Of a DNA stretch of 64,000 nucleotides, positions 3,601 through 52,261 are shown one piece after another (position 1 is the stretch's first letter; each line of letters opens with the position of its first letter). The notes below the pieces were generated by a model. That model did no database searches. It saw nothing but the letters and a program-made list of their open reading frames with translations, and was not told the origin of the DNA. This DNA is from a virus. The position numbers and the translations under genes are program-made. Location of the stretch: positions 1-64,000 of IMG/VR virus record IMGVR_UViG_3300025138_009100; one strand, 5' to 3'.

Positions 3601-6600
3601 GTCACAGAAAAAGAGTCACGTTAAACGAAATATATTATTATGACTATTTAGGTGATAGCAATGGAACATTTTCTTTAGAGTATAATAGATCTACTTATAC
3701 AGATACTCCGATAAATAAATTTTGCGTGAATAATGTTATTGACGAGTGCGGAACTATAGACTGTGTTATTGACGCTAGAATTAGTTTCTGCTACAATTCT
3801 AATCTTCCAAATATAGTTCCTGTTTTTGGGTTATATGCAAGCGGAATAAGCGGCCTAGGGTTTATTGAAGGTAATTCTCCTCCACGTCTCCAAATAGAAC
3901 AGTATCATTCAAAAGAACTAGAAGGTGTAGGAAGAATATTCACAGAGGGTGCTGTAGGTCAATATAGTCTGACACAAAAAATATCAGGCATCTCTGATTT
4001 ATCTACGGGGTTTGCTGACAAGTATAACGGTGACTTCTTTGATTTATCTTGTGTTCAGAAGCTTTATCCTTCCAGTGATATTTCTAGCATAGGTTTTGTA
4101 AGCTCTGAGGGCGAAAATACGCTGTTCCCTCGAATAGACGAAGGTGTATACGAAGGTGACTGGAAGATAGATAGCACTAGAATTTCTGACGACTCTCAAT
4201 CTTACATACAGCTAATTGCACCTGATACAGAGGGTAGTTTTTCCTATAAGTGTGGAATGACTAATACTCTAGTAGACCCAGAAGATTCAGTTATTAAATT
4301 TAGACTGTCTGGTCCAACCTCTACGTTTGACTGCGGTGTTCCTCCTAAATATACAATAAGCAATATTAAACTAGAAGACCCGCAAGGAACACTAATAGTA
4401 CAATATGAAGATATAATTTTTATTGGCGACTCTGACTTTACAAATGATATAAACTACACAACTGTTGTTCGTCAGGAAAAAATAAATAATGTCAAAGGTT
4501 TTTATAGATGGGGCGATAATTATCCTACTCTAGATAGTGGTAACGCCCCTAATGGGTTTTCATTATCGTTTGATATTGACGCTGAAGATCCCGGCGCAGA
4601 GTTTACTCTGGGGTATAATCAAGCATTCAAAGAAAGCACGACTAGAAGCTCTCTTGGTCAATTGAACCCCGCCCTAAGAATATCTGCAATAGAAATTTGC
4701 AGTAGCGGCAGACTGTCTAATTATCAAGAAGAATACATAAACTTAATGACACCAGTTGTTGATACTGGTAGAAGAATTGAGAAGTGTTTTCATCCTACAT
4801 TCTTCCCTAAATTTGATTTTGACACTGGTGTTTGGCCGTCAGTTAGTAGTGTTTGGTATGCTAACGGAGACGCATCTCTCTCCAACCAAAGTTCACAAGG
4901 GTCTATACAGCTACTAGAAAACATTAGAGATTCAGAAGATACCACGTTTGCTACTTTACATTCTATGGGTTCCATAGAAAATTCTGGTAAATTAACGCTA
5001 AGGTTCGGCTATTCACCAACCTCTCAACAGCAAGTTGAAGCTGGGTCTTTTTCTGACGCTTTCGGTGAGGGTAGGAACAAAAGAGATAATATTTGGTTTA
5101 GTCCTCTTGGCGCTTTCTCTGGCTTGACTACTACAGATCAAGACATTGATCATAATTATTTTGAGTTTGATTCTATAACACTTAAAGTTAGAGCTAAAAA
5201 ATCGAGCGGCAGTAGAGATTACGTATTAGACGTTGTTGGATATAGTGATGACTGTCTAATTAACGTCACCCCTGCTGTTGGCGGATTTTTACAAAATACT
5301 TCCGGCGTGATTTTACCAGACCATTCAGATGATAGTCTAGTGTTCTATGGTAATACCGGAAGTATACCTACAACATCAGGATTTAAAGACGTAGACGATC
5401 TAGGTTTATCCACTGAGCCATTTTCTAACAAAGATGAATACTTTGAATCTAGCACAACAAACAACGATGGTGGAGATCACTATCTTTTAACAACTTATCC
5501 TACAGTTACGTCTACTGATTTTGAATGGTACGAGATTCCACTGAAAGTTTACGATGATAACGTTGATCTAGGAGCTTCAAGAAAATACAACCTAAGCTCT
5601 TTACTTGAAAGATTATATTTAGACATCTATCCACTCCCAACTGGCGCTGCTATATCTAACATTCATCTGTGCGTTAGATATGCTCCTCAGAATGCATTCA
5701 ATTTAATGTCTCAAGGTGGAGAGAGAATACGTAGCATACAAGACGGAAGAACAGAAGGGTCTTACTATCCTACGTCAAGACAGTCTAACGACCAAATGCT
5801 TAACGCAGGTTCTGGACTCTCTCCTTTGTCTTATATATCTGGAATACCTCAAGCCTTTACTACTCCTGATAGTATTAAATCAAATTACTCCAGAAGATGG
5901 AGAGGCATGGAGGGTACTGTTCAAGGTCCGTATGACGTGGATCAATTTGGGTTTGGTTTCTCTAACCCTCTGTTAGATTATCCCTTCTTGTCTGGTTTCT
6001 ATCTCTTTGAAGATAACTCAACCTCAATTAAACCCGTCGTTGGCGGCCTAGAGGGAACTCTTACCACTTCGTACAATAACTTCCACTTTACAAATATAGG
6101 TTGGAGATTTTCTAATAGCGGGATATTTGAAGATCAAAAACCGGGATACTCTTCTGCTCACACCACTACGGATTGGACCTCACTATCTAATGGTAGTAAT
6201 AATCTTCAGGGACATGAGTTGTACGGCCAAATAGCAGATGCTTTCAAACATGCTGTTAGAATTTCTGGCGATAACTCCTTTATTAACTTTGGGAATACCC
6301 ACTACGGAACAGAAGGAGACCAAGGACTTTCTGTCTATATGAGATTTACGCCTGATATTAATGTGTCTGGAACTAATTACGACTGTTTTGAAAGCGGCGT
6401 ACTTGTTTCTAAGTGGGATGCCGGTCAGGACATGGAGTTTACTCTCGCTTATTCTGGTGGGTATTTAGCAGCAAGAGCTAAAGATTCGCAAACAGGTAAC
6501 ATCAAAGAAGTTTACGATACTGTACCTTATTCTGGATATCAGTTTCCACTAAGTGTTATCATGACTTACAATGATGACGAAAGCCAAAAATTAAAATTAT

Positions 6601-9600
6601 ATACCGACAACGAATTTGAATCTGACTGGAATGTTCTTCGTGGTTCATCAGATTCGTTTTATATTGACACTAACAGTAGTGATTTGAGAGTTGGGTACTG
6701 CCCGTCTTCTGGTGTTGGTTTTAATATGTTCTTGTTTGAGTTTGGTCTTTCATCTGGAAATATTGTCGAGTCAAATCCTGACGCTACACATAAAGAAGTT
6801 ACTGCTCAAAAATTCTTTGAAAACAATAGAGTTTACTGGTCTGACGAAAAAGAGGGAGTCGCTAACGACACTTCTAAACTTTGGGATTATGTAAATGAAA
6901 ATACATATAGCGATTGGCATATAGGCGCGTTTAAGCATTGTTACTTTAATTTTGAGTTTGATAATCTTGGAAGTAGAACTGGTAAGCGAACTAACAGGGA
7001 TTTAATTAATTTTAATATAAATCATCATGGCTCAGGGTATTCTCAGTATGCAACCCTAGAAATGCCTACAAGTATAGACTCTGGAGTTTCTTATCATACT
7101 CAAATAGAAAACGATTTTCTTAGGTTTCACCTAAGTGATACTCCTGATAATTTTTACTCAGCTTATCCTAGAGTTAGTAAAAACTTACCTCATGGATACA
7201 ACTTTGCAGAAAAAGCCTTAGTTGTAGAAACAATACTTGATCATAAATCTGATAGTCATAATATTGTATGGGAAGACGGTAGCGTCGGACCTAAACTTAT
7301 AGTAAGTCTCTATACAAAGAATCAAGAACCAGAGCATCCTTTGGTTGAGCCATTCACAGAGCCTAACTGGGGCCTTGTGAATAGAGCTATACATTATCTA
7401 CCACCTTCTAGCTGCTTGATGAGATTTGACAGTACGTTCAACTATGATGATTATTGTGATGATTCTGAACAGTGGGCGCTATTCCCGCATGAGCCAAGAT
7501 TAACAGAGTTGACAGAGAAGTATTTCTCTAAAGATGTTGACGATATGTTTTTGCAATATGATTTGGTGTATCCATCTGGCCCAGCTTTTGATTCTCGTAT
7601 TGATATGCACACATGTCATGTGAGAGCAGAAGACGCTTTTGTAAATGCGACTGCTAATTCTGGAAGCTTTAATTTATATGCTAGTGGCGATCCTAGCCCT
7701 GTAGTCAATAGTTTAGATCTACATCTATTTAGTACTTCTGGTATGGAAGATTCCGGTTGGGGTCCAGCAAGTGGTCTTAACTTGGTAACACTTGGGCCAG
7801 TGAACGTTAGCGACTCTGGTTTTATACTGTATGCTAGTGGCGAAACAATTTCTACAGGCGCTTTATCTGCGTTTATTGACGGTCACATTTTAATTAAAGA
7901 ATCTGGCTTTAACTTAATCGCTTCTGGTGACGGTAGAACTTGGACTTCTTACCCTCCTGCGGGTGATGGTGTTGTCGGAGGGATGATTGTTGGCGAAGAA
8001 TTTGTTGTTGGCGCTGCTCCAACGATTCCTCCCTTGCCGATGTTCGTGTATGGAAAAGGAGTTGAAAGCGGCATATTACCATTAGTTGTTAATAACAATG
8101 AATCAGCATCTTCTCCAGATGGCCCTGTTCTTCCGCTGTCACTATTTCCTTCAAACCCCGGCTCTGGTGGTATACGTGACTTCATGCCAGTATATATGTT
8201 GCAAAACTTTGCGAATGAGCCGGGACCAAGATCTGGAACTTTGGATCTAAGTATTATTGGCGCTGCCGCACTTTCTTCTAGATACAGAAACGCATCTACA
8301 AACCTGTCTTTACGCGCACCAGATCAGCTACCTCTTCTAGAAAAAATGAATATCACTTTATATGGTGATAATTTATCAGAAGTTGTTTCTACTGGTAGTT
8401 TAAATTTGTTTAGTTCAAATTACACTGGATTTAATACACCGTTTTATCTTTGGTATAATAATAACTACGGAACTGGAATAACACTTCAAGACAATCAGAT
8501 TGCTAGCGTTGATGTAGGCGATGAAATTCGCGGCGTTGACCTGTTTGGTTACGGGTCATGCACTGGTGACAGTCCTAGAAAAGCAGTAGACTCTGCGTTA
8601 ATTACAGACGATACTATCTGGAGACCAGAAACATGCAATGAAGGCGGTATATTCAGAGCTACTCAGACTTATACAAATTTGAGTGCTGGATATAGCGGAA
8701 ATTATTACGGTATAAGAAAACTACAAGGTCTTATTCCAGACGCTCCATATATTACAACCCTTAAAATAACAACGGGGTCTACAGAGGCTATTAAAGTACC
8801 TAGAGATTGGGAAGAATGGGAGTATGGAACCTGTGGGCCAGATACGATTGGCGGTTGTTGTCCAGATGACCCTTGCTCCAGAAATATAAACTTTAGTGGA
8901 ATCAAGTTGATTGGCGACTACCCCTATCTAAGCGGTCAGCCTGCCCTTTATGATTCTAGCTCTAGGCTGGCTGGAGACAATTATGGACGATCCGTAGCAG
9001 TCAAGAAAGACCTAATGGTAGTGGGCGCTCCAAAGCATAAAATATATGACGAAAGAGGTGATCTATTAAATGACGCTGGTGCTGTATTCTTGTATAGAAG
9101 AGACGAAGATCTTGCAGGACTAAAAGCAGATTGGGCGTTAGAGGAGAAGATAATACTTCCTTCTGGGTATAGACAAGACTACATCAGTGAAACATATCAA
9201 AACCTTCTATGCTATCCTAACAACTTAGCTAAAGAGTTCTGTATTTCTGGTCAACAGTGGAATATAGGTCAACAGGGTAGAGAGTTTGGTCACTCGTTAG
9301 ACTTGGCAAGCAGTGGAGACAGAGAAACACTTGTAGTTGGTGCGCCGGGAGCTTATTGGAACAGGACATTTGAAGACATTGTTGTTTCAGGTGTGCCTGT
9401 ATTTATGCTTGTGTTTACCGATAAATTTTCATACAACAAAGAGAAAATTGCCGCTATAGGTAACACTGCTTTAAAATATGATATACTGTACAAATATTTT
9501 TCTGCACCTTGGGTTCTTGATGGGTCTCAGTTCCAACCTGAGCTAGATATAAATGTTCTACTATGTCAAATTTACGATAACGATCAAAAAGACAGCTTAC

Positions 9601-12600
9601 CAAAAGTTAGATCAGATAAACCTTGGTTCCATCACTTATACATAAATAATTTACTTGATGACAATGAAGATCCTGCGGTATTAAAAAACACCGCTTTGAG
9701 TGGAATACAGAAGAAGTTCTTTGAAATGTTCCCTTACGGAGACGCTCTTTATAGCGGTGTTCCTCCTATTGTCGGAGTGTTTGGTGACGATACTCCATCA
9801 ACATTCAATAAAGCTGCATTCCAGCCAGCGCTAGATGAATTTTTGTCTTTCTATCAAGAGTACGCATATGAAAGTGGTATTAAAGACTTAACGAATGACA
9901 CCTCTCAGTCCGGGTATGTTAAGCAGATTTATTCTGATAGTTTTGCTTGGGACAAAGCTTCTGTCAAAATACTTAGTGATACTTTGGCTACCGGAAATTT
10001 ACTCACGCAAAAACAATCTAGATTCCCAGACTACAACTTTACTGGCAATCCAGTTATGAATTATGTAACCAGTGGAGTAGGTCAAGAGTGGGCTAGAAGT
10101 AATTCTTATGAGTTTCAAATTCCGCCAGAATCTGGTGGTCGTGCTTACATCTTTGAAAAAGAGAATGGTAGATTTAACCTTGTGCAAGAGATTGTTTCTC
10201 CTCAAGAAGATTTACAGCTTTTTAGCAGTGATGATTTCGCAGGGGCGATGGACCAGACAGGACTTCCATACGGAACAAAACCAAACGACAGGTTCGGCCA
10301 TTCTGTTTCAATAAGTAACAATTCTGAAGTTGTTACTATTGGATCTCCTTACTCAACAGAAGCTTGCTTAATCTATGAGCGAGACGAAAAAGAAAACACA
10401 AGAATGTATAAGAAGATTAGAGAGTGGTTAGTCTCTAAGTCTTTGGACGAAGAAGTTACAAAGTATGATAATCTCCTAGTTGTGTCTGGAGAGTTACAGG
10501 TACAGAAAGCGACATATAACGAGCTTAATCAAACTAATAAGTTTGCACTAAGAACAGACAAGAGTTTTTGGGGTAAAACTCCTATTAATTTATATAAGAA
10601 AATATTCAAGTACGACTACACAGATATTGCGTATACAGGAACTTGGGGTTTCATTCCTCAAGAATTTGCTGGAACTTCTAGACTTGGTTACAGTACCGCT
10701 ATTAGTGAAGACGGCGGCGTAGCAGCTTTTGGTGCGCCAACAGACTCCTTTAATGAATTTGATGATTATAACGTGTATCACAGGTCAGAGGATACTTGGG
10801 CTTCTTATATGCAAGCTGGAGCGGTTAGGGTATTTGAATCTAGAAGGTATCACCCACACAGTGGTGCTGTTGAGTTCACAAGGTTTGGAAATCTTGACAG
10901 AAGCGTTCATGGTTCTGGAGACATGGCTCAGTTCTACGACCAGATGGGTCTTTATCTCAAGCCTAAGAATATTTCGTTTGAAAGACTTCCGTTTTCCGAG
11001 ATAGAAATACCCGAAAGCGCAGGTCTCGCATTTATCATTACTCCTGAATTAGATGCTGCTAGTGACGAAATTATAGATAATATTAAATCTTGGCTTGCTC
11101 TAGGTGACAGAACTTTAGTTCTGGCTGGTAACGACCCAATCTGGGAAGAGAATGGACTATACTTCGATTCTAATAAAATAGTAAATAAGATTCTTAAAAA
11201 GCTTGGATCAAGAATGAGACTTGTTCCTGCTAGAAATGAATATGAATCATTAGTAGGTGGTGTTTCTGAGTTAGATTATAATAATGATAAATACAATGTA
11301 ACCAAAGCATTTATTCCTGAGTACATACATGATACACATCTAACAAATAATAATATGTTTGCTAGTGGTGTTGCAGATATTAGAATAGATATTTCCGATT
11401 TGGAGTTACAAGATTTACTACTACATTCTCCTTGTGATACAATTAACACAAAGTGTGAGCATACTATTCAGCATCTAGGAGATTTGAGAACACAGTGGAA
11501 CTCTGAGTGTATTGTTGCCGGTACTCCTCCCGGTAAAATAGAATACAAGACAAACTGGCCTTTCCATTTTAATAATCCAAATCCAGCAAGAGGTTGCAGT
11601 TTCTGGCCTCAAAATCCAAAACCTTATGTAGATCGACCGGGAGAGGCAATTAGACCTGTCCTCACGGCTGCTGAACACATAACACCACCACCAGTTATTA
11701 TACCTGCTTCCAGCGGCGAAGATAAAAAATGCACTACCAGTCTTTCTGGGATTATAACGACTACTTATGAAACAAGTACTAAACTCTATGAATTTGCCGA
11801 CACGCAACTTGACGAGTTGGCGTTTTCCATAAGTCAACCCTCTGGATCGTTTCTGTCTGGAATATTTGAAGATTTTACTAGAGGTGAGTTCTTTGACCCA
11901 GAGCCTTTTGAGACTAGAAACTCATTCATGCAAGCCGCAGGTACTTCTTACGAAGTAGATGTTCCTCCTAGTGATTTTGTTGTTTCGCCAGAGAGTGTTT
12001 GGGCCACGGAAGAGTCTTACTACAACAACTCCGTTAACACTAACTCTAAAGTAATACTGTTTGCTTCTATGCAGGCTGAAACAGATTTTGCTGTAGGTAA
12101 GTCAAATAACGCAGGAGAAGATCCTAATAATAAAGATCAAAATATATACTTCTACAACAACCTTGTTTCTCAGGATTGCAATAGCGCTGGAAACATTATT
12201 CAGCTTGGTGGCTGGACGGGAAGAGACTCTTTCAGTTCTGCATTTGCTAATTCGGCAGTAGCCAAGGTCTTAAAACAGGGACAGCATGAAGTTTCTTCTG
12301 GAGTGATATTTACTGAAACTGATTCAATTTCTGTTATACATAATGTCGTCTGGATTGCAGATCCTATCGCCAAACCTTCTGATTCAGATATAAATAGAAT
12401 CAAGAACTGGTTAGATACAGGAGATAAAAAACTCGTAATAACATATTCTAACAGTCAAGAAAAAGCAAACCACGTAGAGTATATTTGTGATAAGTTGGGA
12501 TTGAACACTAAGCCTTACTACTCTAAGGCGAACGGCGCGTATTTTGTTCAGGATACAGATCTGATAGCTCAAGGTAACACTCAAGCTATACCTTATGATA

Positions 12601-18153: not shown

Positions 18154-18154
18154 G

Positions 18155-23485: not shown

Positions 23486-23534
23486 TGCAGATAATCTTAC
23501 GGAATAAGAATAACTAAGGACAAGAGAGAAAAAA

Positions 23535-28063: not shown

Positions 28064-28095
28064 TAACAGAATATTTCTTAATAGGAGATTAAATA

Positions 28096-32103: not shown

Positions 32104-32123
32104 GTATAGTTCTCCTTACTCCT

Positions 32124-32153: not shown

Positions 32154-32168
32154 GTAAAATAAATAAAT

Positions 32169-34829: not shown

Positions 34830-34833
34830 GATT

Positions 34834-37008: not shown

Positions 37009-37018
37009 TATCTTTTCC

Positions 37019-38074: not shown

Positions 38075-38075
38075 T

Positions 38076-38372
38076 CTATTCCTTAAAAAATTCTTCCGAG
38101 TTTATATTTTTGTCATCAATAAATAGGTCGTAGTAGGGCTTTCCCATTCTTAATTCAGAGTATTTGCAGTCCCATCGTTCTAATTGCTCTTGCGTGACTT
38201 TAAACCAGTTCATATTTGTAATAGTTCCTCTGGCCGTCCAATAAATTATAGTATTGCCCTGTTCATATAGCTTATTTATTTTTTTAATTCTATCTTCAAT
38301 TGGTTCTGCTAAAGAATACTTTCCATCCGTAAAAGAGCAAATTGTTTCATCTATATCAACAAATATAATCAT
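38076..38372 (-). CDS. Minimal HAD phosphatase (capsule-biosynthesis type)
   Basis: FVDIDETIC, YWTARG, GKPYYDLFIDDK. Confidence 0.85.
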   Translation of the reverse strand: MIIFVDIDETICSFTDGKYSLAEPIEDRIKKINKLYEQGNTIIYWTARGTITNMNWFKVTQEQLERWDCKYSELRMGKPYYDLFIDDKNINSEEFFKE

Positions 38373-41220: not shown

Positions 41221-41229
41221 TTCGTTTTC

Positions 41230-43887: not shown

Positions 43888-44528
43888 TTTCTTACCTTTA
43901 AATAGAGTCCATCGCCCCAAGTCCCACCGTCCTGCTGCCAGTACGTAGCGATTCTTTGAAAGTCTCTTTCAAATAAGTATTGGTCCATGTCCTCAACTAA
44001 AACACAGTTTTCGTACATTTCTTCTTTGTTTATCTCTGTTAATATCAAATCTACATGCTTTAGTGTTTCTTCTGCGCCTTTAAAAACCTCTAGCTCGTAG
44101 CCCTGAACGTCTATATTTATAAAATTATATTTTTCTCTGTCAAATTCTTCGTCGTCTAGTTTTGCTATTTTAACGGTTTCTGTTTTGTCGAATTTGATCT
44201 GTGGGTACTGCTCAAGATGATATTTTGGTTTTAGCACAGAAGATGACAATCCTCTATCCTCCAAGTGCATTTCGACGGTTCCATTTTTATTACCAAGCGC
44301 TATATTCCTAGCGTCTACAAGAAAGTCTGTTCCTATGGTTTTTTTTAGTTTTTCAAAATTGTCGGGCAACGCCTCGTAAAAAAGAAGGTTATCTATGCCG
44401 AAGTGCTTGTAAAGCGGGTATTCTTGACCTTCATGCGCTCCAATATGTATACAGCCTTCTATTATTAAATCTATACCTTGGTTTTTCATGTGACCCATCA
44501 AGCTGGGTAGCTGTTGTAATATTTCCAC
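43884..44528 (-). CDS. FkbM-family methyltransferase
   Basis: IHIGAHEGQE, SSSVLKP, NIDVQGYELEVFKG, WGDGLY. Confidence 0.88.
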   Translation of the reverse strand: MEILQQLPSLMGHMKNQGIDLIIEGCIHIGAHEGQEYPLYKHFGIDNLLFYEALPDNFEKLKKTIGTDFLVDARNIALGNKNGTVEMHLEDRGLSSSVLKPKYHLEQYPQIKFDKTETVKIAKLDDEEFDREKYNFINIDVQGYELEVFKGAEETLKHVDLILTEINKEEMYENCVLVEDMDQYLFERDFQRIATYWQQDGGTWGDGLYLKVRK

Positions 44529-44536
44529 GTTTTCTC

Positions 44537-45238
44537 CTAATCGCTTGTTATTCTTTGTTTTGGGAATCCTAATTCTTTTCTTTTATTGAAAACCATCTGA
44601 TCTCTACCGGAATAATATAAAGTTTTTTGAGTAGCATTGTCGTGCTGAAGGCTTTCCATAAGGCTATAATGCTCATGCGTAATAATCACCTTATCAATAT
44701 ACTTCTCTTTACTCAACCTCTTTACCTCTTGTGTAAATTCATCATCACAATATAAACTCTTGTAGTCGGGGTGATACACGTAACCAAAATGCTCATATAA
44801 TTTTCGACCCAGAATAGAAAAAGTAATAAGCTTCCCCTCAGTGTTCCCATCGTTGAAATGAACACACCCGTCTAGGTCTGGGAAATGTTCCTTCATGGCG
44901 ATAGCGATTTCGTTGTCCCAACTGTGAGCCTTTGGTATCATGTCGTCAGAGGCGCAAATCACGATATCAAAGTCTCTACCTTCAATGTGGTCGTTGATAG
45001 CACTGATCTTATCTGTGTCTTTATCAAAGTTTACAATACCTCTTATCCAAGATTTACGCATCAAAAGTTTAGTTATTTGGTTCTGCACATGAGAGTCTGT
45101 CATCGTCAAATCATCCGAGTCACAATTAATATTAAAAAATATCTCATGCTTCTCTCCACAGGTATCAATATACTGCTTTAGTACGTCAAGGAACTTTTGT
45201 GGTCTACTGTATGTGGGGAATTGTATTAATAACTTCAT
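44537..45238 (-). CDS. GT2-like glycosyltransferase
   Basis: FPTYSRP, KISAIND, ASDDMIP, YKSLYCDDEFT. Confidence 0.75.
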   Translation of the reverse strand: MKLLIQFPTYSRPQKFLDVLKQYIDTCGEKHEIFFNINCDSDDLTMTDSHVQNQITKLLMRKSWIRGIVNFDKDTDKISAINDHIEGRDFDIVICASDDMIPKAHSWDNEIAIAMKEHFPDLDGCVHFNDGNTEGKLITFSILGRKLYEHFGYVYHPDYKSLYCDDEFTQEVKRLSKEKYIDKVIITHEHYSLMESLQHDNATQKTLYYSGRDQMVFNKRKELGFPKQRITSD

Positions 45239-46110
45239 AATTGTTTTACCGATTCTAGTAGTGTTTTTGAAACCTCTTCTTCTCCTAGCTCTAGTGCTAG
45301 CTTCGCCGCCCTGTTAAAACAACTGTGATGTTTTTTTATCTGCTGTTTTATATTATCTATATTTGGTGTGTCTTCTTCTTCGTAAAACAGTGTTGCTAAA
45401 ACTTGATTGAAAAGTTCTTTCTGTTCTTCTGGAACTCTTACTGTCAATTTCTTTGCTTTTACAAACCCGTCAAAGAATACTTGAGAACATGTAAAGTTTA
45501 CATCGCCTACAACAACAACTTCTTCGTATTTTTCGTACAGTGAGTCCATATTAAGGACGTTAGCCTGTAAGTCAAAATTAAGATCTGGGTTATCTGCCAT
45601 TATGATTTTGTGATATGTTTTATACATAGAACACGCTTCTGTGAATTTATCGCAAACCTTGTTGGAGACGACTGCTGCTTCTATATTATAGTCTGGAGTA
45701 GGTGTTGCTATAGCAAAAATATCGTAACAAGGCAAAAGATTTACAATCTTTTTATCTGTTTTAAGATTTGATAAAAATTTATAATCTTGTGATACAAAAA
45801 AGGGACAATCTATATCCTGATTCTTAACCATTGCTTCTAGATTATTTAATATATTCTGATCTATACCAGTAATATCTACGACGAGTTTAACCTGTTTGTT
45901 CTGGGAGATATATGCAATTAAATCTTGATGCATAGTTTGAAAGCTTGTCAGTACTAAGTCTGGTTTTTCTGAGTCTAGCTTGTCGTATACACTGGTGGGT
46001 TCATTTAAATTCCAAAGCTTAGAATCTAAACCTACCCTAGAAAGGCATTCGTTTAAATACATAGGCTGACTAGAACATGAGTTTGAGTAATTCTGAATTA
46101 ATAGTTTCAT
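45235..46110 (-). CDS. Hypothetical protein, degenerate GT-B/CgeB-like
   Basis: KPDLVL Rossmann strand and C-terminal KKHHSCFNRA (like HTyxhR of CgeB-type GTs); no clear catalytic motif. Confidence 0.45.
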   Translation of the reverse strand: MKLLIQNYSNSCSSQPMYLNECLSRVGLDSKLWNLNEPTSVYDKLDSEKPDLVLTSFQTMHQDLIAYISQNKQVKLVVDITGIDQNILNNLEAMVKNQDIDCPFFVSQDYKFLSNLKTDKKIVNLLPCYDIFAIATPTPDYNIEAAVVSNKVCDKFTEACSMYKTYHKIIMADNPDLNFDLQANVLNMDSLYEKYEEVVVVGDVNFTCSQVFFDGFVKAKKLTVRVPEEQKELFNQVLATLFYEEEDTPNIDNIKQQIKKHHSCFNRAAKLALELGEEEVSKTLLESVKQL

Positions 46111-46850
46111 TTTTTAATTCTCTTTAGGGTTTTTATATCGTTTAGTTTCGTTACTTTTTGTTTTCCAACATCTGTTACTGAGACGGTATCGTTTTTCAAA
46201 AGTTCGTTAATCGCTTCAAACATAAATTTATTTTTAAAGTCTGGATCAGATACTATCGAGTAAAACCGATCAACTACATCTTGTCCGTTTAAGTATAAAG
46301 TCTCTGTCCAAAAGTCTGTTTTTTCACCCAAACAAAAAGACTGTAGCTTTTTATTGTTTACAATTGCTGAGACAAAAAATTCTGATTTAAAATTTTCTTG
46401 CTGTACGTTTATGGAGGTTCTTTTATAATTAATAGCAGCGAGGTACGAGGGTGTTAAAAGTATGTTTCCTGAGCATATTAAAATTTTTGTATTCATCGTA
46501 TTATTCAGGCATAGTCTCGCGCTTTCACAACAGTTTGAATTGTAATGTAGTTGATTTTCTACAATTCTTATATTCTCTTTCTTAAAATTAGCTTTTACGT
46601 ATTCCGTTGTTTTCTGCGCATCAAAACCAGAACATAGTATTATTTCGTACTTTGGAAACACTGCCTTTATTGCATCTATTTGCTTGTGTAGCAGTGTCTT
46701 GGTGTCTACTTTTATTAAGGGTATAGGTCCGTAGGACTTCATTCTGTGACCATGATTCTCTCCAAGTAAAATCACTGTTACAGAATCTTTTATATTATTT
46801 TCTTTGTATTCAGATTCTTTAGCTGATACAATGTATTTATCATTTCTCAT
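46107..46850 (-). CDS. Sugar-phosphate nucleotidyltransferase-like protein (degenerate motif)
   Basis: VILLGENHGHRMKSYGPIPLIKV..TLLHKQI; IRIVENQLHYNSNCCES; canonical LAAGxGxR..PK is altered. Confidence 0.6.
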   Translation of the reverse strand: MRNDKYIVSAKESEYKENNIKDSVTVILLGENHGHRMKSYGPIPLIKVDTKTLLHKQIDAIKAVFPKYEIILCSGFDAQKTTEYVKANFKKENIRIVENQLHYNSNCCESARLCLNNTMNTKILICSGNILLTPSYLAAINYKRTSINVQQENFKSEFFVSAIVNNKKLQSFCLGEKTDFWTETLYLNGQDVVDRFYSIVSDPDFKNKFMFEAINELLKNDTVSVTDVGKQKVTKLNDIKTLKRIKK

Positions 46851-47448
46851 TTAATCTCAAATAATTACTAGAGTCCGATTGATCAATCAAATATTGAGAC
46901 ATTTTATCATAGCTATTAAAGTATAAATAATTTTTTGAAACCATCCTACGGGGAATAGCCGTTACATCTCCTTGGCTAATAATCAAATCAATATTCTTTG
47001 ACGCTTCATCAACTTCGTAGGAGCGATTTCCAGTTTTAGATATTCTAGGTTTATGATAACTATCACACACTCTATTAAAAAAATCTGGTTGAATTTTTTC
47101 GTCGTGGTTCATTTTTACCAAATAATTTGCATGAGAGCAAATTGAAAAGGCGTTATGATCTACGTCCTGTTCCTTTTCTAACTGATGATTCATAAGTAAT
47201 CTAGTGTGTTTAAATTTTTCCAGTAAAACATTAGCATGGTGTACATAATTATTTAAGCTTTTTTCTGCTGATAGATATGAACATAAGATTATTTTTAATT
47301 TATCAGCAGGGTAGTTTATTTTTAATATAGACCCAATTGCTTGCTCTATTTGTGACTTCTCTTTAGAATCAAATAAAACCAATCCAAACAATAACTTTTT
47401 ATTGGACTGCGGCTCGTCTTTCTGCTGTGACTTCATAAACGACTCCAT
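46840..47448 (-). CDS. Hypothetical protein, GT-A-like fragment
   Basis: AIGSILKINYPADKLKIIL resembles a GT2 N-terminus; the DxD position reads NHD; start uncertain. Confidence 0.4.
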   Translation of the reverse strand: MESFMKSQQKDEPQSNKKLLFGLVLFDSKEKSQIEQAIGSILKINYPADKLKIILCSYLSAEKSLNNYVHHANVLLEKFKHTRLLMNHQLEKEQDVDHNAFSICSHANYLVKMNHDEKIQPDFFNRVCDSYHKPRISKTGNRSYEVDEASKNIDLIISQGDVTAIPRRMVSKNYLYFNSYDKMSQYLIDQSDSSNYLRLNEK

Positions 47449-47827
47449 TTATAGTGGAAGATTTGATAAAAAGATTTAAAGATCTAAGTAAGTCTTTTAC
47501 TGACCCTATAGTAGATAGTGATAGGTTTTTACCAATTAATAAAGATGCATCTTCTTCTTTAATGATTCCGTTAATAACATTTTTGAAAAAACATCTTAAC
47601 TCAACGCCAGATACCACAATAGAACCACCGGATCTTAGCTTACTGCAAATTTTAACCAATGATTCTTGCGAACTTGAAGTAGAGTCCAAAGTATTCTTGC
47701 TTATAATTAATTCGCACGAATTATTTGGTATATGGTCTAAGTTTAAACTTGAGTTTTGCTGGTTAACGATAACTGTTTCAAATCCATCAATTTTTTGTGA
47801 CTCGTCTTCTATTATTTGTAGTTTCAT
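47399..47827 (-). CDS. Truncated methyltransferase-fold protein
   Basis: LDHIPNNSCELIISKNTLD...KLRSGGSIVV present; SAM motif I absent. Confidence 0.5.
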   Translation of the reverse strand: MKLQIIEDESQKIDGFETVIVNQQNSSLNLDHIPNNSCELIISKNTLDSTSSSQESLVKICSKLRSGGSIVVSGVELRCFFKNVINGIIKEEDASLLIGKNLSLSTIGSVKDLLRSLNLFIKSSTINGVVYEVTAERRAAVQ

Positions 47828-48810
47828 TTTTTCATCCTATATGCGAGGTCAAATGTTTCATTCCAATTATTTATAAATGACTGCTCAGAAAATTTTTCTA
47901 GTATTGTTTCTCTGGCGCAGCTTCCTAGTTTTTTAGCAAGTTTGGAGTCTTCTAGCAACTGTTGAGTATATTCTCTTAGTTCATCTTCATCGTTTGAAAT
48001 AAAGCCGTTAACACCATTCTCAATGATTTCTGGGATCATACAAGTTGCGGTACTAACAATCGCACAGCCGCATGACATGGCTTCTAAGAGAGATGTAGGA
48101 ACAGGACTAATAGTAGACGTATTTAGAAAGACAGACGCTTGCTGATACTCTGAGGCCAGTTCATGTATATCTTTTGCTGGCTCTGACAATCCGGGAGTAT
48201 TACCCACAAGTCTTACCGGCAACTCGTTTGTAACTCTTTGCCAACCAGAATAGTTACAGCAGTAGTCTCTGTTTGCAAAATCATTAACAACACTAAGAAC
48301 TTTTCCGTTTTTCTTTACGTCCGATGAAGTAAAAAGCTCTGTGTCAACTGAGTGGTGAATTACTTTGTTGTCACAATTTATATTCCACTCATTAACAGAA
48401 TATTCCGAGATAAAAACATTAATATCTCCTCTCATCTGCCTAAACGCCTCTGTTTGTTGTTCAGGCCAACTAGGAATGGGCAGTGTGTGTTCTAGAGAAA
48501 GGACTGGTAAACCAAGGGTTTGATTTATTCTTTGAGCCATTTGAAATTGACCAAACTTGCTATGAGAAAGTATGAAGTCAAAGTCAATACTTGTCATTAT
48601 GGAATTTTTGGGCATACTATAGTAATTTTCTGGTCTTTCTGAATAGGTTGTATCCCATTCTTTTCCTCCTTCGTAATTAAACGCAAAGAAGTTATGACCA
48701 GTTTTAGCTTGCTGAAACTGGTATCGTTCGTGTGTGTCAAAAGTTAGTATATTGTATTTATCTTTCTTTTGTGTAGCGGTGCTTATTATAGACGCTGTTT
48801 GACTACTCAT
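47824..48810 (-). CDS. GT4 glycosyltransferase
   Basis: HSVDTELF, VFLNTS..SPVPTSLLEAMSCGCAIVST, EIIENGVNGF. Confidence 0.88.
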   Translation of the reverse strand: MSSQTASIISTATQKKDKYNILTFDTHERYQFQQAKTGHNFFAFNYEGGKEWDTTYSERPENYYSMPKNSIMTSIDFDFILSHSKFGQFQMAQRINQTLGLPVLSLEHTLPIPSWPEQQTEAFRQMRGDINVFISEYSVNEWNINCDNKVIHHSVDTELFTSSDVKKNGKVLSVVNDFANRDYCCNYSGWQRVTNELPVRLVGNTPGLSEPAKDIHELASEYQQASVFLNTSTISPVPTSLLEAMSCGCAIVSTATCMIPEIIENGVNGFISNDEDELREYTQQLLEDSKLAKKLGSCARETILEKFSEQSFINNWNETFDLAYRMKK

Positions 48811-49939
48811 TTATAATCTCCTTCATGCATTTTCCAATGTTCTCGTAAGAGTAGTTCTCTGCTCTTTTTAGTCCTGCTGCTTGATTTCTACTTTTATACA
48901 TTATGGGATTATTTTTCCACGACTCAAAATACTTTCTCATTTGCTCTCGTATGTTTCTTTCACAGGGTTGGAACCAGTACTCTCTACCTGTAAATATATC
49001 TGGAAAGGCAGCGTCTGAGCATTTGCATACAGAAAAAACACCCCTAGCTAGGTGTCCTGTTCTCCAGCTAGACTTGTCGATAAATTCCTTTGGTCCACCA
49101 AAGTCGCTACAGATCGGGGTATTCCCAAAGCACATTGCGTCAAACGATGGTATTGACCAAGCTTCTCCGTGGCTTGGGCAGATAAAACAATCCATATGTT
49201 TATGAATTGCGAATATATCTTCGTCAGAAACTTCGTCAGAAATAATTACAAGCTTCTTATACTCAGTAATATTGTCGTGCATTCTTAAAGAAGTCTTTAC
49301 TTTTGAAGCTATAGCATCTACAAGTTTTGATGTCTGTTCTGGAGAATGTCCAAACTTTTTAACTTTTAAAATTAGATTTGCTTGCTCTGACTTGTCAAAC
49401 TCACTGTAAAAACAAGTTATTATAGACTCTATGTTTTTTCTATCGTTTACGTCTCCGATATAATAAAACTTAAAAGAATTCTCTGTATCTGGAATGCTAA
49501 TATCTCTATACTGTTTCTTATATTTTTCCATTTTACATGTGTGCGGGACCACTTTTACAGATTCTATCCCCCCATCAACTAGGGTTTGTCGTGAGTCAAT
49601 ATTAGCAACCCAAACTTGATCAACCTGTTTAAGATGTTCCACCCAAGGTAAATGTTTAATACTTAAAGTTTCTGTTTCCATGAAGGCGATATTCTTCTTA
49701 AAACTATCAGACCCGACCAAGTGATGAGGTAGAACGTGTTGAATACAAATATCGCAATCTTCTGTAGTCTTTTTTTCTATCTCTAACAACCTTGGATCTA
49801 TATTTTGCTTATCCTGCGTCAGTGTGACGTTTCTGCAAACAACATCTACACCAACCTTGTCGAGCGCTAAGATATTGTCCGTGGCAGCTTGCGCCCAGCC
49901 ACCAAATTCTTTGTAGTGTCCTATGTATAGTACTTTCAT
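48803..49939 (-). CDS. GT4 glycosyltransferase
   Basis: METET, RKNIE, DCFICPSHGEAWSIPSFDAMCFG; start MKVLYIG at 49939 (ATGA overlap). Confidence 0.85.
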   Translation of the reverse strand: MKVLYIGHYKEFGGWAQAATDNILALDKVGVDVVCRNVTLTQDKQNIDPRLLEIEKKTTEDCDICIQHVLPHHLVGSDSFKKNIAFMETETLSIKHLPWVEHLKQVDQVWVANIDSRQTLVDGGIESVKVVPHTCKMEKYKKQYRDISIPDTENSFKFYYIGDVNDRKNIESIITCFYSEFDKSEQANLILKVKKFGHSPEQTSKLVDAIASKVKTSLRMHDNITEYKKLVIISDEVSDEDIFAIHKHMDCFICPSHGEAWSIPSFDAMCFGNTPICSDFGGPKEFIDKSSWRTGHLARGVFSVCKCSDAAFPDIFTGREYWFQPCERNIREQMRKYFESWKNNPIMYKSRNQAAGLKRAENYSYENIGKCMKEIINE

Positions 49940-50574
49940 ATATTCATTGTCTCCAAGCAATTAGCATACTCTTTGTAGATATGCTTATGTTTATCAAATG
50001 TTTCCTCATCCACAAACCAATCTTCTACAGGTCCGTATTCATTTAGGCATACATTAGCCCATAATAATTTATATCCGTAGTCTGATAAGACCTTTCTGTA
50101 GTAAGTGTGTTCTTTTAATATATTCTTCTTATGTTCTTCTGATCCATCCTGAGTGCATTCCGGTAAAGACTGGAACAGATTATGCTCTAATGTCAATACT
50201 TTGAATTTATATCTGTCAAAATCAAAATCGTTAAACACTTTTAATTGTGCGTCATCTACGTCTATAGACAGATAATCAATTTCTTCTGGGCAATTGTAAT
50301 CATCTAATACTTCATTTATATTTTTTTCTAGAAGGTCTACACACACGCAATCTGCTAATCTTAATTGACTAGTTCTTGACCACCAATTAGTATCATAGTC
50401 AATAGCTATACCTTTCCAGTTTTTAAATGTCTCAAAATAATAGGTATTGCTATAAAAACCCGGAGTGTGGGTGGGGAGACCACCCGTTCCTGCGCCTATG
50501 TCAACAAAAAACCCTTCTGTTTTATTAACAATTTTGTCCACAAATATATCTTGACAAGCTTGCGCATTATACAT
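49936..50574 (-). CDS. FkbM/Methyltransf_21-like methyltransferase
   Basis: QDIFV...GFFVDIGAG...SNTYYFE..WKGIAID...IDYLSIDVD...LTLEHN...EDWFV. Confidence 0.8.
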   Translation of the reverse strand: MYNAQACQDIFVDKIVNKTEGFFVDIGAGTGGLPTHTPGFYSNTYYFETFKNWKGIAIDYDTNWWSRTSQLRLADCVCVDLLEKNINEVLDDYNCPEEIDYLSIDVDDAQLKVFNDFDFDRYKFKVLTLEHNLFQSLPECTQDGSEEHKKNILKEHTYYRKVLSDYGYKLLWANVCLNEYGPVEDWFVDEETFDKHKHIYKEYANCLETMNI

Positions 50575-52261
50575 TAGCCACCTGTTGACTCTGAGATAGC
50601 TGTTGTATCTTTTGCACTCTAGCTTGCTCCCAATGATTTCTTAAATCACACTGCATCTTCATTTGATCGTAAGCAACGTTAAAATTAAAGGGAGTTCTGT
50701 GGTTCTGGCCGTCGAAAGCGGCGGAAGACTCATTAAAATACATACCTCCAGTAGAAGAGGTACTTTGATTGTAAATTAAGTCTCTTGTCATTCTAGATTC
50801 AAAGAAAGTATTTAGCTTACTTTGATCTCCTAATACGTTTGTTATTAGCCATTTTGAGAGATGGGAATGATTTTCATTTCCTTTTATCTCAATTTTTTGA
50901 GCAGATTGATGTAGCTTTGGTTGAGATGCCCAACCCTTCTCGTAAGAAACTGGCTCTGTTTCATCAAAATATTTTTCCCAAACAGAACCGCTCAGATGCC
51001 ACTGGTAATATTCTTCAAACTGTTCTCTTGTATGTTCACCCTTGATATATCTCCATTCGTCTGATTTGCTGAAAAAATTCAAGAAATAGTTAGCAGCTTC
51101 TTGATTGTCTGGGACTGCGCGTAAACATCCAGTTTCTAACTCTTTATATAAAGCCGCTGGCTTGATGGGGTATCCGCCTAACTTCCTTAAAACACTTTCC
51201 ATAGCAGAATAATCTGTTCCGCAGACGGGAACCCCACAAGCCGCAGCTTCTACTTGAGGTAGTCCAAAACCCTCAGAGTTTGCATATTGAGTATATAGGT
51301 CAAAACAATTCATAACCTTTGCTAATTCTTCATAGCTTAATCCGTTCTTTACATTAGACAGCGTAGAACCCCATTTGTCAGTATATGGAGACTGAGCTAT
51401 AGCACCTTTAAAGGTTGATACGAATGATTTTTTTGTTTCTGGGCAGATATATGTAAACAACACGTTAGAAGCTAGTTCGTGTTGATGTAATAATTCTGGA
51501 ATATCCCATCCCAAATCTGGATAAGATGTATGACAGTAGAGATAATATTTTTTATTCTCTGACTTATCTAAGAATAACTTGAACGCTTCAAACAAGTCCG
51601 GGTAAAGCTTACGTCTTTGGTTTCGCATGACCGTTCCGATAACTTTATACTCTGGGTCAATACCCATAGAAAGTTTATGCGCATCTTTATCTTCTACAGG
51701 TTTGTAGGCAGGATGAGCAGAAGGGGGCGAGCTACCTAAATAGTTAATTTTACCTCCAGATTGATCTTCTAAAACACCTCCAGCCCAATCAGAGTATGTT
51801 AAACACGCATCTGCGTTAGCGTAAGTGGCAATCCACTGTCTAGCTTGCGGTCTCGCATCTACTGTTGGCATTATAACCCATTTAAAGTAAGGTCTAAATG
51901 GTGAGCGTTCCGCAAAGTCTAACATCCAGAAGTCACGAATATCACAAACAAAATCTGGTAAGAAATCTAAACACACATGCTCAAAAGCCCATCCACCAAA
52001 CTGATTTGTTGGGTTTGAGTTATAGGTATTGATTTCTTCTTCGGAAGATTTTGGTTCGCACTCTGTGTTAGGAGCTACTCCGTAGTATTTCCAAGGAATA
52101 TTTGCTGCTCTAGGGTCATTCTTTTGACCGTAGGATGCCATCTCAGCAATTTCATACTTGCCAGTGCTGTGCAAATAGTTTAGGATTTCTCTAGTATAGG
52201 TTGCATACCCCGTGTTTAGAAAGGTAGCTTCGCTGCAAAACAAAATTCTTTTCTTTCTCAT
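50567..52261 (-). CDS. GT4 glycosyltransferase (564 aa)
   Basis: TGYA, VMRNQRRKLYP, LYCHT..PDLGWDIP, SEGFGLPQVEAAACGVPV. Confidence 0.88.
   Translation of the reverse strand: MRKKRILFCSEATFLNTGYATYTREILNYLHSTGKYEIAEMASYGQKNDPRAANIPWKYYGVAPNTECEPKSSEEEINTYNSNPTNQFGGWAFEHVCLDFLPDFVCDIRDFWMLDFAERSPFRPYFKWVIMPTVDARPQARQWIATYANADACLTYSDWAGGVLEDQSGGKINYLGSSPPSAHPAYKPVEDKDAHKLSMGIDPEYKVIGTVMRNQRRKLYPDLFEAFKLFLDKSENKKYYLYCHTSYPDLGWDIPELLHQHELASNVLFTYICPETKKSFVSTFKGAIAQSPYTDKWGSTLSNVKNGLSYEELAKVMNCFDLYTQYANSEGFGLPQVEAAACGVPVCGTDYSAMESVLRKLGGYPIKPAALYKELETGCLRAVPDNQEAANYFLNFFSKSDEWRYIKGEHTREQFEEYYQWHLSGSVWEKYFDETEPVSYEKGWASQPKLHQSAQKIEIKGNENHSHLSKWLITNVLGDQSKLNTFFESRMTRDLIYNQSTSSTGGMYFNESSAAFDGQNHRTPFNFNVAYDQMKMQCDLRNHWEQARVQKIQQLSQSQQVANV

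What the first reader, a model, noticed from the sequence alone, without database searches (positions are those of the whole stretch)
3834..52261. Candidate phage-encoded virion O-glycosylation system: Ser-Gly sites in structural proteins plus a 21-kb glycan cluster
Seen: a hand count finds about 80 Ser-Gly dipeptides in the last ~3900 aa of the giant protein (ASG, SSG, ESG, VSG, YSG, ISG...; ~2%). A rough estimate from composition would be ~0.7%. The 276-aa protein has 7 SG, the 240-aa protein 5 (three ASGV) and the 600-aa protein 7. The minus-strand enzymes show no obvious excess by eye. The SG sites are dispersed rather than in low-complexity tracts. The same genome has ~28 contiguous glycan-related genes with no flippase, Wzy, ABC exporter or initiating undecaprenyl transferase in the window, so these look like soluble cytoplasmic enzymes. 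Known: Ser-Gly is the attachment signal for proteoglycan chains in animals, and some mycobacteriophages and giant viruses glycosylate their own virions. Inference: the phage builds a glycan coat on SG sites during assembly.
Basis: partly seen in the sequence, partly recalled or inferred. Interest (0 to 1): 0.9.

Follow-up and report, generated by a model that had tools for sequence, protein, structure and literature searches.

The report
Conserved Ser-Gly signature in phage virion proteins
Several virion proteins of an abundant uncultured marine phage family carry many more Ser-Gly pairs than chance allows, next to a membrane-free sugar-building gene island, but nothing yet shows that the sugars are attached at those serines.

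Summary
The 4956-aa protein has 88 Ser-Gly (SG) against 39 expected. None of 5000 shuffles exceeded 62, and GS is 44. SG is its most over-represented dipeptide. The excess is in frame and uses both Ser codon families.

The bias is family-wide: all 120 listed homologues and all 53 related viral loci show it, with GS near 1. About 50 positionally conserved sites account for the excess. It recurs in a few other virion proteins (276-aa protein, fibres of relatives). It is absent from the 1811- and 1490-aa tail proteins, the enzymes, and T4 and phiST virion proteins.

The window is part of a roughly 165-175 kb marine phage. The glycan island has a conserved core (three GT4, a nucleotidyltransferase-like protein, unknowns) and swappable sugar cassettes; the NeuB cassette is specific to this phage. 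No polytopic membrane protein exists in the window or in three complete relatives.

No result ties the glycan to SG. TG is not enriched, flanks are hydrophobic, and sites are deeply conserved. My best reading is a lineage-specific structural motif plus a cytoplasmic glycan pathway that probably decorates virions. I put an SG sequon at about 0.2.

The parts
2..634 (+). C-terminal end of a tape-measure-like protein (5' open in the window)
   Evidence: PHROG hits to tape-measure and endolysin families. It is 85% identical to the end of a 2464-aa ORF in relative G002 that has several hydrophobic segments.
654..3653 (+). Giant protein, variable N-terminal ~1000 residues (Calx-beta at 548-646, weak Laminin_G_3 at 880-979); no SG excess
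   Evidence: Pfam and PDB sequence hits to Calx-beta only. Relatives match from about residue 1000 onward. SG is 6 against about 7 expected.
3654..15524 (+). Giant protein, conserved core (residues 1001-4956) with 82 SG; includes integrin-alpha-like FG-GAP propeller regions
   Evidence: The AF2 model of residues 2600-3500 has pLDDT 74.5, and its best Foldseek hits are integrin alpha chains.
15524..17326 (+). 600-aa conserved tail-module protein; SG 7 vs 5.0, not significant
17323..18153 (+). 276-aa SG-rich protein (7 vs 1.5). Its counterparts in three relatives are also SG-rich, and the SG motifs are the conserved islands of the alignment
18050..23485 (+). 1811-aa tail-module protein without SG excess (8 vs 10.8)
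23535..28007 (+). 1490-aa, most variable tail-module protein (43% identity to G002, 23-25% to G004 and G012), without SG excess (6 vs 10.6)
28096..28818 (+). 240-aa conserved protein with 5 SG (2.1 expected, p 0.06). Three SG are invariant in all 4 genomes and a fourth is kept in 3 of 4
31165..44528 (-). Variable part of the glycan island: epimerases/dehydratases, FdtA isomerase, DegT aminotransferase, methyltransferases, GT2 and others; lower G+C (0.31-0.36)
   Evidence: Pfam, composition. Most genes have no counterpart in G004 or G012.
34834..40543 (-). Nonulosonic-acid cassette: Polysacc_synt_2 dehydratase, PIG-L, GT1-like, NeuB, CMP-type cytidylyltransferase, PhyH-like
   Evidence: Pfam. 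Only the 275-aa Polysacc_synt_2 dehydratase has partial matches (28-33% identity) to genes elsewhere in G002, G004 and G012, and the 98-aa ORF matches a G004 gene; the other six cassette ORFs have no counterpart in any of the three. NeuB is absent from 5 of 5 complete relatives. G002 carries SDR, HMGL-like aldolase, cytidylyltransferase and UPF0047 in its place.
44537..52261 (-). Conserved core of the glycan island: GT 233 aa, 291 aa, 247 aa (nucleotidyltransferase-like), 202 aa, 142 aa, GT4 328 aa, GT4 385 aa, FkbM methyltransferase 212 aa, GT4 564 aa
   Evidence: Orthologues in G002 and G004, and mostly in G012; Pfam, PHROG and NCBIfam hits.
50567..52261 (-). 564-aa GT4-type glycosyltransferase with an extra C-terminal helical domain; one of the best conserved genes of the family
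   Evidence: 91, 73 and 60% identity to G002, G004 and G012. 3743 homologues at E<=1e-5. AF2 pLDDT 77.9. Foldseek: chlorovirus NY2A putative GT 3oy2, then MshA, SPS and BshA.

Best explanation
The window is a 64-kb piece of a roughly 165-175 kb tailed phage from an abundant, uncultured marine family. The SG excess is real and comes from purifying selection on fixed positions. About 50 dispersed hydrophobic-S-G-hydrophobic sites lie in the conserved core of the 4956-aa integrin-like tail protein. Similar motifs mark a few other virion proteins, including a periodic motif in fibres of relatives.

I read these most likely as a lineage-specific structural element: a small-residue turn, cap or rung position in beta-propeller, solenoid and fibre folds. 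I do not read them as modification sites (inferred).

The neighbouring island is a wholly soluble glycan pathway. It has a conserved core of three GT4 enzymes plus a nucleotidyltransferase-like protein, and strain-variable nucleotide-sugar cassettes; here the cassette makes a CMP-nonulosonic acid. With no flippase, polymerase or initiating transferase in the genome, it must act on a cytoplasmic acceptor. Virion proteins are the most likely acceptor (inferred, about 0.45 on its own). Whether SG serines are the attachment points is not shown.
For: The excess equals the conserved sites. Of 82 core SG, 53 are kept in at least 50% and 36 in at least 80% of 22 homologues at about 44-61% identity (the subset of these in alignment A1; homologues listed at 41-65%). 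The 29 unconserved sites match the chance expectation of 32. SG is the most conserved of 150 dipeptide types: 44% of sites are at least 80% conserved, against 9.9% overall. Ser in SG is 64% identical across homologues against 37% for other Ser.

TG is not enriched, and Thr rarely replaces the Ser. Flanks are hydrophobic: -1 is A/V/I/L and +2 is I/V/L. The fibre of G002 has SG at spacings of 7, 10, 11 and 15 residues, as in periodic fibre folds. There is no excess in the variable N-terminus or in the most variable tail protein.

The island is soluble, with no polytopic membrane protein in the window, G002, G004 or G012. The GT core is conserved in 24 of 27 related records. Cassettes are swapped between close relatives.
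Against: No single structural role fits. In the AF2 model of residues 2600-3500, the 13 SG in confident regions lie in loops before strands, inside strands, inside helices and at helix ends. The same Ser preference appears in proteins with no detected sequence similarity (giant, 276-aa protein, fibres, 320-aa and 314-aa proteins of G002). Other X-Gly pairs are depleted in the giant (NG 0.6, PG 0.55, KG 0.28), which points to a shared, non-fold-specific cause. T4 virion proteins (SG 82, GS 77, expected 75.6) and phiST virion proteins (35, 41, 39.4) show no such bias, so it is not generic to fibres or tails. Strict Ser with exclusion of Thr is also what a Ser-specific transferase would produce, as reported for TibC in PMC4358343 section 6. 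Solvent exposure could not be computed because no model coordinates were available.
Confidence: 0.5

Rival explanations
1. SG sequon. A phage-encoded, Ser-specific cytoplasmic glycosyltransferase (candidate: the highly conserved 564-aa GT4) starts O-glycans on the Ser of hydrophobic-S-G-hydrophobic motifs in folded or folding virion proteins. The other GTs extend the glycan, and the variable cassettes supply strain-specific terminal sugars.
For: The SG bias is restricted to virion proteins and absent from enzymes. It is absent from T4 and phiST. It is shared by proteins with no detected sequence similarity and found in mixed secondary-structure contexts. The Ser is as conserved as Gly. The giant protein and the GT core co-occur in every near-complete relative. 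All enzymes are soluble. There is a precedent for cytoplasmic, Ser-only hyperglycosylation of many sites in a beta-rich adhesin, with one mapped site in N-S-G-G (PMC4358343 section 6).
Against: There is no direct evidence. No GT shows a protein-acceptor signature: the 564-aa GT matches generic GT4 folds with small-molecule or lipid acceptors as well as it matches a viral GT. Sites do not turn over. Some conserved SG sit inside predicted helices or strands. The variable N-terminus and the 1811-aa and 1490-aa tail proteins lack the bias, and the putative G002 major capsid protein has 2 SG vs 2.6 expected. G012 has only the core island and a weaker bias (47 vs 27.7), but this is a single data point.
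Confidence: 0.2
2. Host-envelope target. The island builds or alters a lipid- or wall-linked host glycan at the inner face of the membrane and relies on host initiating, flipping and ligating enzymes, for example to block superinfection or re-adsorption. The SG bias is unrelated.
For: GT4 enzymes commonly act on lipid-linked or small acceptors; nearest folds include PimB', WaaG, MshA and BshA. The gene content resembles O-antigen or capsule loci, with cassette swapping and low G+C. The genes are co-oriented with the replication genes, not the virion genes.
Against: No initiating transferase, flippase, polymerase or ligase in the island or anywhere in three complete genomes. The GT core is a family-wide core gene set of apparently lytic phages of about 170 kb, and its 564-aa GT is more conserved than DnaE.
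Confidence: 0.2
3. DNA target. The conserved GTs glycosylate hypermodified bases in phage DNA, as in T-even phages.
For: The island abuts the replication module. A T4 gp1-type dNMP kinase is conserved in the family. Reviews quoted in PMC12619734 note DNA glycosylation as a common role of phage GTs.
Against: A thymidylate-synthase or hydroxymethylase homologue is present in only 2 of 5 complete relatives and not in the closest one. No TET/JBP match was found, though that control rang nowhere. A pathway with 5-7 GTs, O-methyltransferases and a CMP-nonulosonic acid is far more elaborate than the DNA-glycosylation systems I recall.
Confidence: 0.05

Closest known systems
Mycobacteriophage virion O-glycosylation (Freeman et al. 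2023; seen only as quoted in PMC12619734; the paper itself is not held)
   Same: Phage-encoded soluble glycosyltransferases that decorate the phage's own virion proteins in the cytoplasm.
   Different: There the glycans sit at the C-termini of capsid and tail-tube subunits, and this was shown by experiment. Here the acceptor is unknown, the candidate sites are internal SG motifs, and the gene island is much larger.
Autotransporter heptosyltransferases TibC/AAH acting on TibA/AIDA-I (PMC4358343; abstract and passages read)
   Same: Cytoplasmic GT-B enzymes that modify many dispersed Ser, not Thr, in a large beta-rich adhesin. One mapped site lies in N-S-G-G.
   Different: TibC is a dodecameric ADP-heptose transferase with an iron-finger. 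No window protein matched a heptosyltransferase family, the candidate here is GT4-like, and no heptose pathway was seen.
Cytoplasmic flagellin O-glycosylation with pseudaminic or legionaminic acid (FlmG paper PMC7591256; search listing and abstract start only)
   Same: A soluble pathway with a NeuB-type synthase and a CMP-activating enzyme, and a protein acceptor modified before export or assembly.
   Different: No Maf- or FlmG-type transferase was reported by Pfam for any window protein. The NeuB cassette is absent from 5 of 5 complete relatives.
Animal proteoglycan Ser-Gly xylosylation (recalled, no call)
   Same: The Ser-Gly dipeptide as an O-glycan acceptor, with Ser only.
   Different: As I recall, that signal has acidic flanks and a Golgi xylosyltransferase. 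Here the flanks are hydrophobic and no window protein matched a xylosyltransferase family.
Virus-encoded glycosylation in chloroviruses and giant viruses
   Same: The closest structural neighbour of the 564-aa GT is a putative GT of chlorovirus NY2A (3oy2, E 1.2e-14, TM 0.77 on the target).
   Different: The margin over bacterial GT4 enzymes is small. The function of that chlorovirus protein is not given in the entry title, and the hosts are eukaryotes.
Integrin alpha FG-GAP beta-propeller
   Same: Pfam FG-GAP_2 match and best Foldseek hits for residues 2600-3500, including chains with an inserted domain.
   Different: TM-scores are low (0.1-0.17). The phage protein is about 5000 residues and most of it has no recognised family.

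Membership tests
Phage virion glycosylation system (mycobacteriophage type) | Phage-encoded soluble glycosyltransferases | tested here: met
   Pfam GT1 and GT2 matches, a PHROG GT, and no membrane segments.
Phage virion glycosylation system (mycobacteriophage type) | Glycan demonstrated on virion proteins | not testable with these tools
   Needs mass spectrometry or glycan staining of virions. No cultured member was found: no match in 50,697 phage records.
Ser-Gly O-glycosylation sequon | SG over-represented against GS and against shuffles in the acceptor proteins | tested here: met
   Giant 88 vs 39.3, GS 44, z 8.5. SG O/E is above 1.6 in 120 of 120 homologues and 53 of 53 loci, with GS about 1.
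Ser-Gly O-glycosylation sequon | Acceptor serines exposed on the folded protein | tested here: inconclusive
   Only secondary structure was available. Contexts are mixed (loops, strands, helices). There were no coordinates to compute accessibility.
Ser-Gly O-glycosylation sequon | Bias tracks presence of the GT genes across relatives | tested here: inconclusive
   7 of 7 near-complete relatives have the GTs. The 3 of 27 records without a match are 53-67% complete fragments, so there is no informative contrast.
Wzx/Wzy- or ABC-dependent surface polysaccharide locus | Initiating phosphoglycosyl transferase, flippase or ABC exporter, polymerase or ligase | tested here: not met
   No Pfam match. 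No protein has two or more predicted membrane segments in the window; the three complete relatives have only small proteins under 190 aa with 2-4 segments, plus the tape measure of G002.
Nonulosonic acid biosynthesis pathway | NeuB-type condensing synthase plus CMP-activating cytidylyltransferase plus UDP-sugar 4,6-dehydratase and aminotransferase | tested here: met
   NeuB 1.3e-59, CTP_transf_3 1.4e-14, Polysacc_synt_2 1.8e-46, DegT 2.3e-35. The exact sugar was not determined.
BAHT (TibC/AAH) protein heptosyltransferases | Heptosyltransferase catalytic domain with iron-finger, encoded next to its substrate | tested here: not met
   No heptosyltransferase family match. The 564-aa GT folds as GT4.
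T-even-type DNA glycosylation | Hydroxymethylase of the thymidylate-synthase family together with the GT | tested here: not met
   PF00303 is present in 2 of 5 complete relatives and absent from the closest, G002.
Integrin-alpha-like FG-GAP propeller proteins | FG-GAP repeats forming a beta-propeller | tested here: met
   PF14312 8.5e-21. FG-GAP-like motifs appear in the family consensus. Foldseek hits to integrin alpha have probability 0.9-1.0 but low TM.

The most novel reading that the evidence does not exclude
An abundant, uncultured marine phage family hyper-O-glycosylates its own virion in the cytoplasm with a Ser-specific enzyme that reads hydrophobic-S-G-hydrophobic as a sequon. There would be about 50 fixed sites on a 5000-residue integrin-like tail protein and about 70 on a fibre. 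A conserved inner glycan would be made by three GT4 enzymes, with strain-variable acidic terminal sugars (a nonulosonic acid in this phage).
Probability: 0.2. Interest if true: 0.85.

Novelty: new variant of a known kind. Interest (0 to 1): 0.6.

Why it matters
As far as I know, virion glycosylation in phages has been shown experimentally only for some mycobacteriophages. Four full-text searches found no report of an SG signature, of this giant-protein family, or of nonulosonic acids on phage particles.

This family is very common in ocean metagenomes: 321 giant-protein homologues and 3743 homologues of its core GT. It couples a conserved, export-free glycan module with a sequence signature that gives exact, testable candidate sites.

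If the link is real, it would define a bacterial-virus protein glycosylation sequon and suggest that many marine virions carry variable sugar coats. That would bear on adsorption, particle stickiness and decay in the sea. If the link is not real, the conserved Ser-Gly positions are still an unexplained structural rule of a very large, uncharacterised tail protein.

Tried and rejected
- DNA-level cause: rejected. The excess is frame-specific and spread over several codons.
- Internal domain duplication as the source of SG: rejected. Self-BLAST shows only two weak repeats.
- Generic property of phage tail or fibre proteins: rejected by T4 and phiST.
- Avoidance of deamidation-prone Asn-Gly: considered. 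NG is depleted in the giant (15 vs 25.1), but the deficit of about 10 cannot explain an SG surplus of about 49, and DG is near neutral.
- Test with relatives lacking GT genes: not possible.
- Close relatives of the 276-aa protein in viral contigs: none found by pattern search.
- Cultured relatives: none by megablast of 12 kb or tblastn of 1000 residues of the giant. DnaE is at most 30% identical to known phages.
- PDB sequence search of the giant: only Calx-beta.
- PDB sequence and fold searches of the GTs: generic GT4, with no acceptor-specific signal.
- Co-fold of the 564-aa GT with the 240-aa protein: the job returned no answer (score 0.00, controls not run). This is no evidence either way.
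- Solvent accessibility of SG serines: model coordinates are not exposed to scripts.
Freeman et al. 2023 is not held. Supplements of the papers read were not consulted.


Full report
**What the window is**

The window is the first 64,000 bases of a single 72,368-base viral contig with no terminal repeat.

The plus strand (2..28818) carries:
- the end of a tape-measure-like protein (PHROG hits);
- a 4956-aa ORF;
- ORFs of 600, 276, 1811, 1490 and 240 aa, none with Pfam or PHROG matches.

The minus strand carries:
- four small conserved genes;
- a 21-kb glycan island (31165..52261);
- a replication module: SSB, a DnaE split in two around an RNase T-like exonuclease, a PD-(D/E)XK nuclease, a T4 gp1-type dNMP kinase and a primase.

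Nothing similar exists among 50,697 deposited phage genomes. DnaE is at most about 30% identical to known phages, and Cellulophaga phages share the split arrangement.

IMG/VR holds 53 related loci. Near-complete relatives are 157-176 kb, and one has direct terminal repeats. The closest relative, G002 (162,690 bases, 98% complete), is syntenic with the whole contig. It supplies the missing head and tail genes: large terminase, a probable major capsid protein, a head protein and tail fibres.

**The observation**

The giant protein:
- It has 88 SG against 39.3 expected from composition.
- 5000 shuffles gave mean 39.3, sd 5.7 and maximum 62 (z 8.5).
- SG is by far the most over-represented of the 400 dipeptides (z 7.8; the next is 3.0). 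GS is 44.
- The excess is in the reading frame (88 against 16 and 16 in the other two sense frames) and uses both TCN and AGY codons, so it acts at protein level.
- The sites are dispersed, and the protein has almost no internal sequence repeats.
- The first 1000 residues, which are variable in the family, carry no excess.

Other window proteins:
- The 276-aa protein is significant (7 vs 1.5, p 8e-4).
- The 240-aa protein is marginal (5 vs 2.1, p 0.06).
- The 600-aa, 1811-aa and 1490-aa proteins show nothing.
- Minus-strand proteins are at expectation (48 vs 40.5).

**The bias belongs to the family and to fixed positions**

A protein search found 321 homologues of the core. The 120 listed are 3322-5598 aa and 41-99% identical. 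All 120 have SG observed/expected between 1.91 and 3.37 (median 2.59), while GS lies between 0.66 and 1.33. The longest ORF of all 53 IMG/VR loci gives 1.64-3.09 for SG and 0.79-1.36 for GS.

I aligned the window protein with 22 of the 120 homologues, chosen to spread over the ranking:
- Ser within SG is 64% identical to the reference, against 37% for other Ser.
- 36 of 82 core SG are kept as SG in at least 80% of the homologues, and 53 in at least 50%.
- By comparison, 3 of 32 GS, 0 of 12 NG and 1 of 17 DG reach 80%.
- SG ranks first for conservation among 150 dipeptide types. The 29 poorly conserved SG match the chance expectation of 32.

So the whole surplus consists of old, fixed sites. 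Thr is not enriched before Gly (O/E 1.06-1.11). NG, PG and KG are depleted. Thr makes up only 10-13% of replacements at SG serines.

**Other virion proteins**

In G002, seven ORFs are SG outliers at p<0.01, and six lie in the virion block:
- the giant protein;
- the counterpart of the 276-aa protein;
- a 1320-aa fibre next to the head genes (72 vs 18.6; GS 13);
- proteins of 320, 314 and 161 aa.

There is one GS outlier. G004 has eight SG outliers and G012 three. Five of the G004 outliers match the G002 virion proteins above. Without the giant and the fibre, the G002 virion block has SG 175, GS 123 and 125 expected. The rest of the genome has 110, 126 and 99.3.

In the weakly conserved 276-aa protein, the SG motifs are the conserved islands. 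In the 240-aa protein, three SG are invariant in all four genomes. In the fibre, SG occurs as [AVIL]-S-G-[VLIA]-[LIA] at spacings of 7, 10, 11 and 15 residues.

Controls show no bias:
- 24 T4 virion proteins give SG 82, GS 77 and 75.6 expected. Among 124 ORFs in 99 kb of T4 there is no SG outlier. The first 70 kb of T4 were not examined.
- Eleven phiST virion-module proteins give 35, 41 and 39.4. Two further proteins annotated as structural elsewhere in that record were not included.

**Structure**

An AF2 model of residues 2600-3500 was built from 42 sequences (41 of the 53 loci plus the window; duplicates and partial copies were left out). It has mean pLDDT 74.5, with the first 170 residues poorly modelled. 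Its best PDB neighbours are integrin alpha chains, in line with the FG-GAP match, but TM-scores are low.

The 13 SG in confidently modelled parts sit in loops before strands, inside strands, inside helices and at helix C-termini. No single turn type explains them.

**The glycan island**

Twenty of 27 ORFs have glycan-related family matches. They include:
- a nonulosonic-acid set (NeuB, cytidylyltransferase, 4,6-dehydratase, aminotransferase);
- an FdtA isomerase;
- several methyltransferases;
- GT2- and GT4-type transferases.

A hydropathy scan finds no protein with two or more membrane segments in the window. In complete G002, G004 and G012 it finds only small 2-4-segment proteins, plus the tape measure of G002.

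Comparison with G002, G004 and G012 splits the island in two.
- The conserved core (44537..52261) is led by a 564-aa GT4 that is 91, 73 and 60% identical. That is more conserved than DnaE, and the protein has 3743 database homologues.
- The variable part (31165..44528) has lower G+C.

NeuB is absent from 5 of 5 complete relatives. G002 has a different cytidylyltransferase-containing cassette in its place. G012 has little beyond the core. PF00534 GTs are present in 24 of 27 related records searched (28 handles were given, one was not held) and in 7 of 7 that are at least 90% complete.

The 564-aa GT models as a GT-B enzyme with an extra C-terminal helical domain (pLDDT 77.9). Its nearest fold is a putative chlorovirus GT. 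MshA, sucrose-phosphate synthase and BshA follow closely, so the acceptor cannot be read from the fold.

**Weighing the readings**

For a structural motif:
- deep positional conservation with no turnover;
- hydrophobic flanks;
- periodic spacing in the fibre;
- no TG enrichment;
- no bias in the most variable, presumably most exposed, parts.

For a modification site:
- the same strict Ser preference in proteins with no detected sequence similarity and in mixed structural contexts;
- depletion of other X-Gly pairs;
- restriction to virion proteins;
- absence from two control phages;
- constant co-occurrence with a conserved soluble GT module;
- a documented bacterial precedent in which a cytoplasmic enzyme modifies many Ser, but not Thr, in a beta-rich adhesin, one site lying in N-S-G-G (PMC4358343 section 6).

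I put the structural reading at about 0.5 and the sequon at about 0.2. Independently of SG, the island's acceptor is most likely virion protein (about 0.45), then host envelope precursors handled by host export enzymes (about 0.3 on the same scale; 0.2 as the joint reading listed among the rivals), then DNA (about 0.05). A hydroxymethylase homologue is present in only 2 of 5 complete relatives.

**Literature**

Four full-text searches found no description of this family, of an SG signature in phage proteins, or of nonulosonic acids on virions. A paper on another aquatic phage lineage reports four core glycosyltransferase groups of unassigned role and cites the mycobacteriophage work (PMC12619734; outline and passages read).

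**Limits**

- ORFs in relatives were called as longest non-overlapping frames.
- Expected counts use each protein's own composition, and p-values are Poisson approximations.
- The 23-sequence alignment was made with a fast MAFFT mode.
- Both AF2 models are of moderate confidence.

Noticed in passing
window 52644..56904 (-): DnaE is split into a PHP plus NTPase part (555 aa) and a finger plus OB part (520 aa), with an RNase T-like exonuclease (225 aa) and a 126-aa ORF between them. Cellulophaga phages also annotate two DnaE pieces.
   Followed up: partly
window 654..15524 (+): The giant protein defines a large uncharacterised family: 321 hits, 3322-5598 aa among the 120 listed, with about 3900 conserved residues. 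It is common in Tara Oceans small-size fractions. Its N-terminal ~1000 residues are swapped between lineages (Calx-beta, LamG, RCC1-like and others).
   Followed up: partly
L065:8547-12509 (G002 22547..26509): A 1320-aa fibre encoded right after the head genes has 72 SG in [AVIL]-S-G-[VLIA]-[LIA] motifs at 7, 10, 11 and 15-residue spacing. The window contig does not reach its counterpart.
   Followed up: partly
window 34834..40543 (-) vs L058:10334-13701: The NeuB-type cassette of this phage is replaced in the 78%-identical relative G002 by SDR, HMGL-like aldolase, cytidylyltransferase and UPF0047. This suggests a different CMP-activated sugar at the same place.
   Followed up: partly
window 32001..48000: G+C drops to 0.31-0.36 across the variable part of the glycan island, against 0.37-0.42 elsewhere.
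   Followed up: no
window 29965..30735 (-): A 256-aa protein with PHROG HNH-endonuclease similarity is conserved in position in G002, G004 and G012 (46-90% identity). That is unusual for a mobile homing endonuclease.
   Followed up: no
window 59045..61247 (-): PAP2-superfamily and DUF1501 proteins sit inside the replication module. The PAP2 protein shows no predicted membrane segment by hydropathy.
   Followed up: no
L074:15933-18638 (G012): In the most divergent relative, the orthologue of the 564-aa GT is a 901-aa protein, so it carries an extra region of about 340 residues.
   Followed up: no
window 654..15524, reverse strand: SG-coding hexamers are also frequent in one antisense frame (46, against 16 and 5 in the other two). 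This is probably a by-product of codon composition.
   Followed up: no
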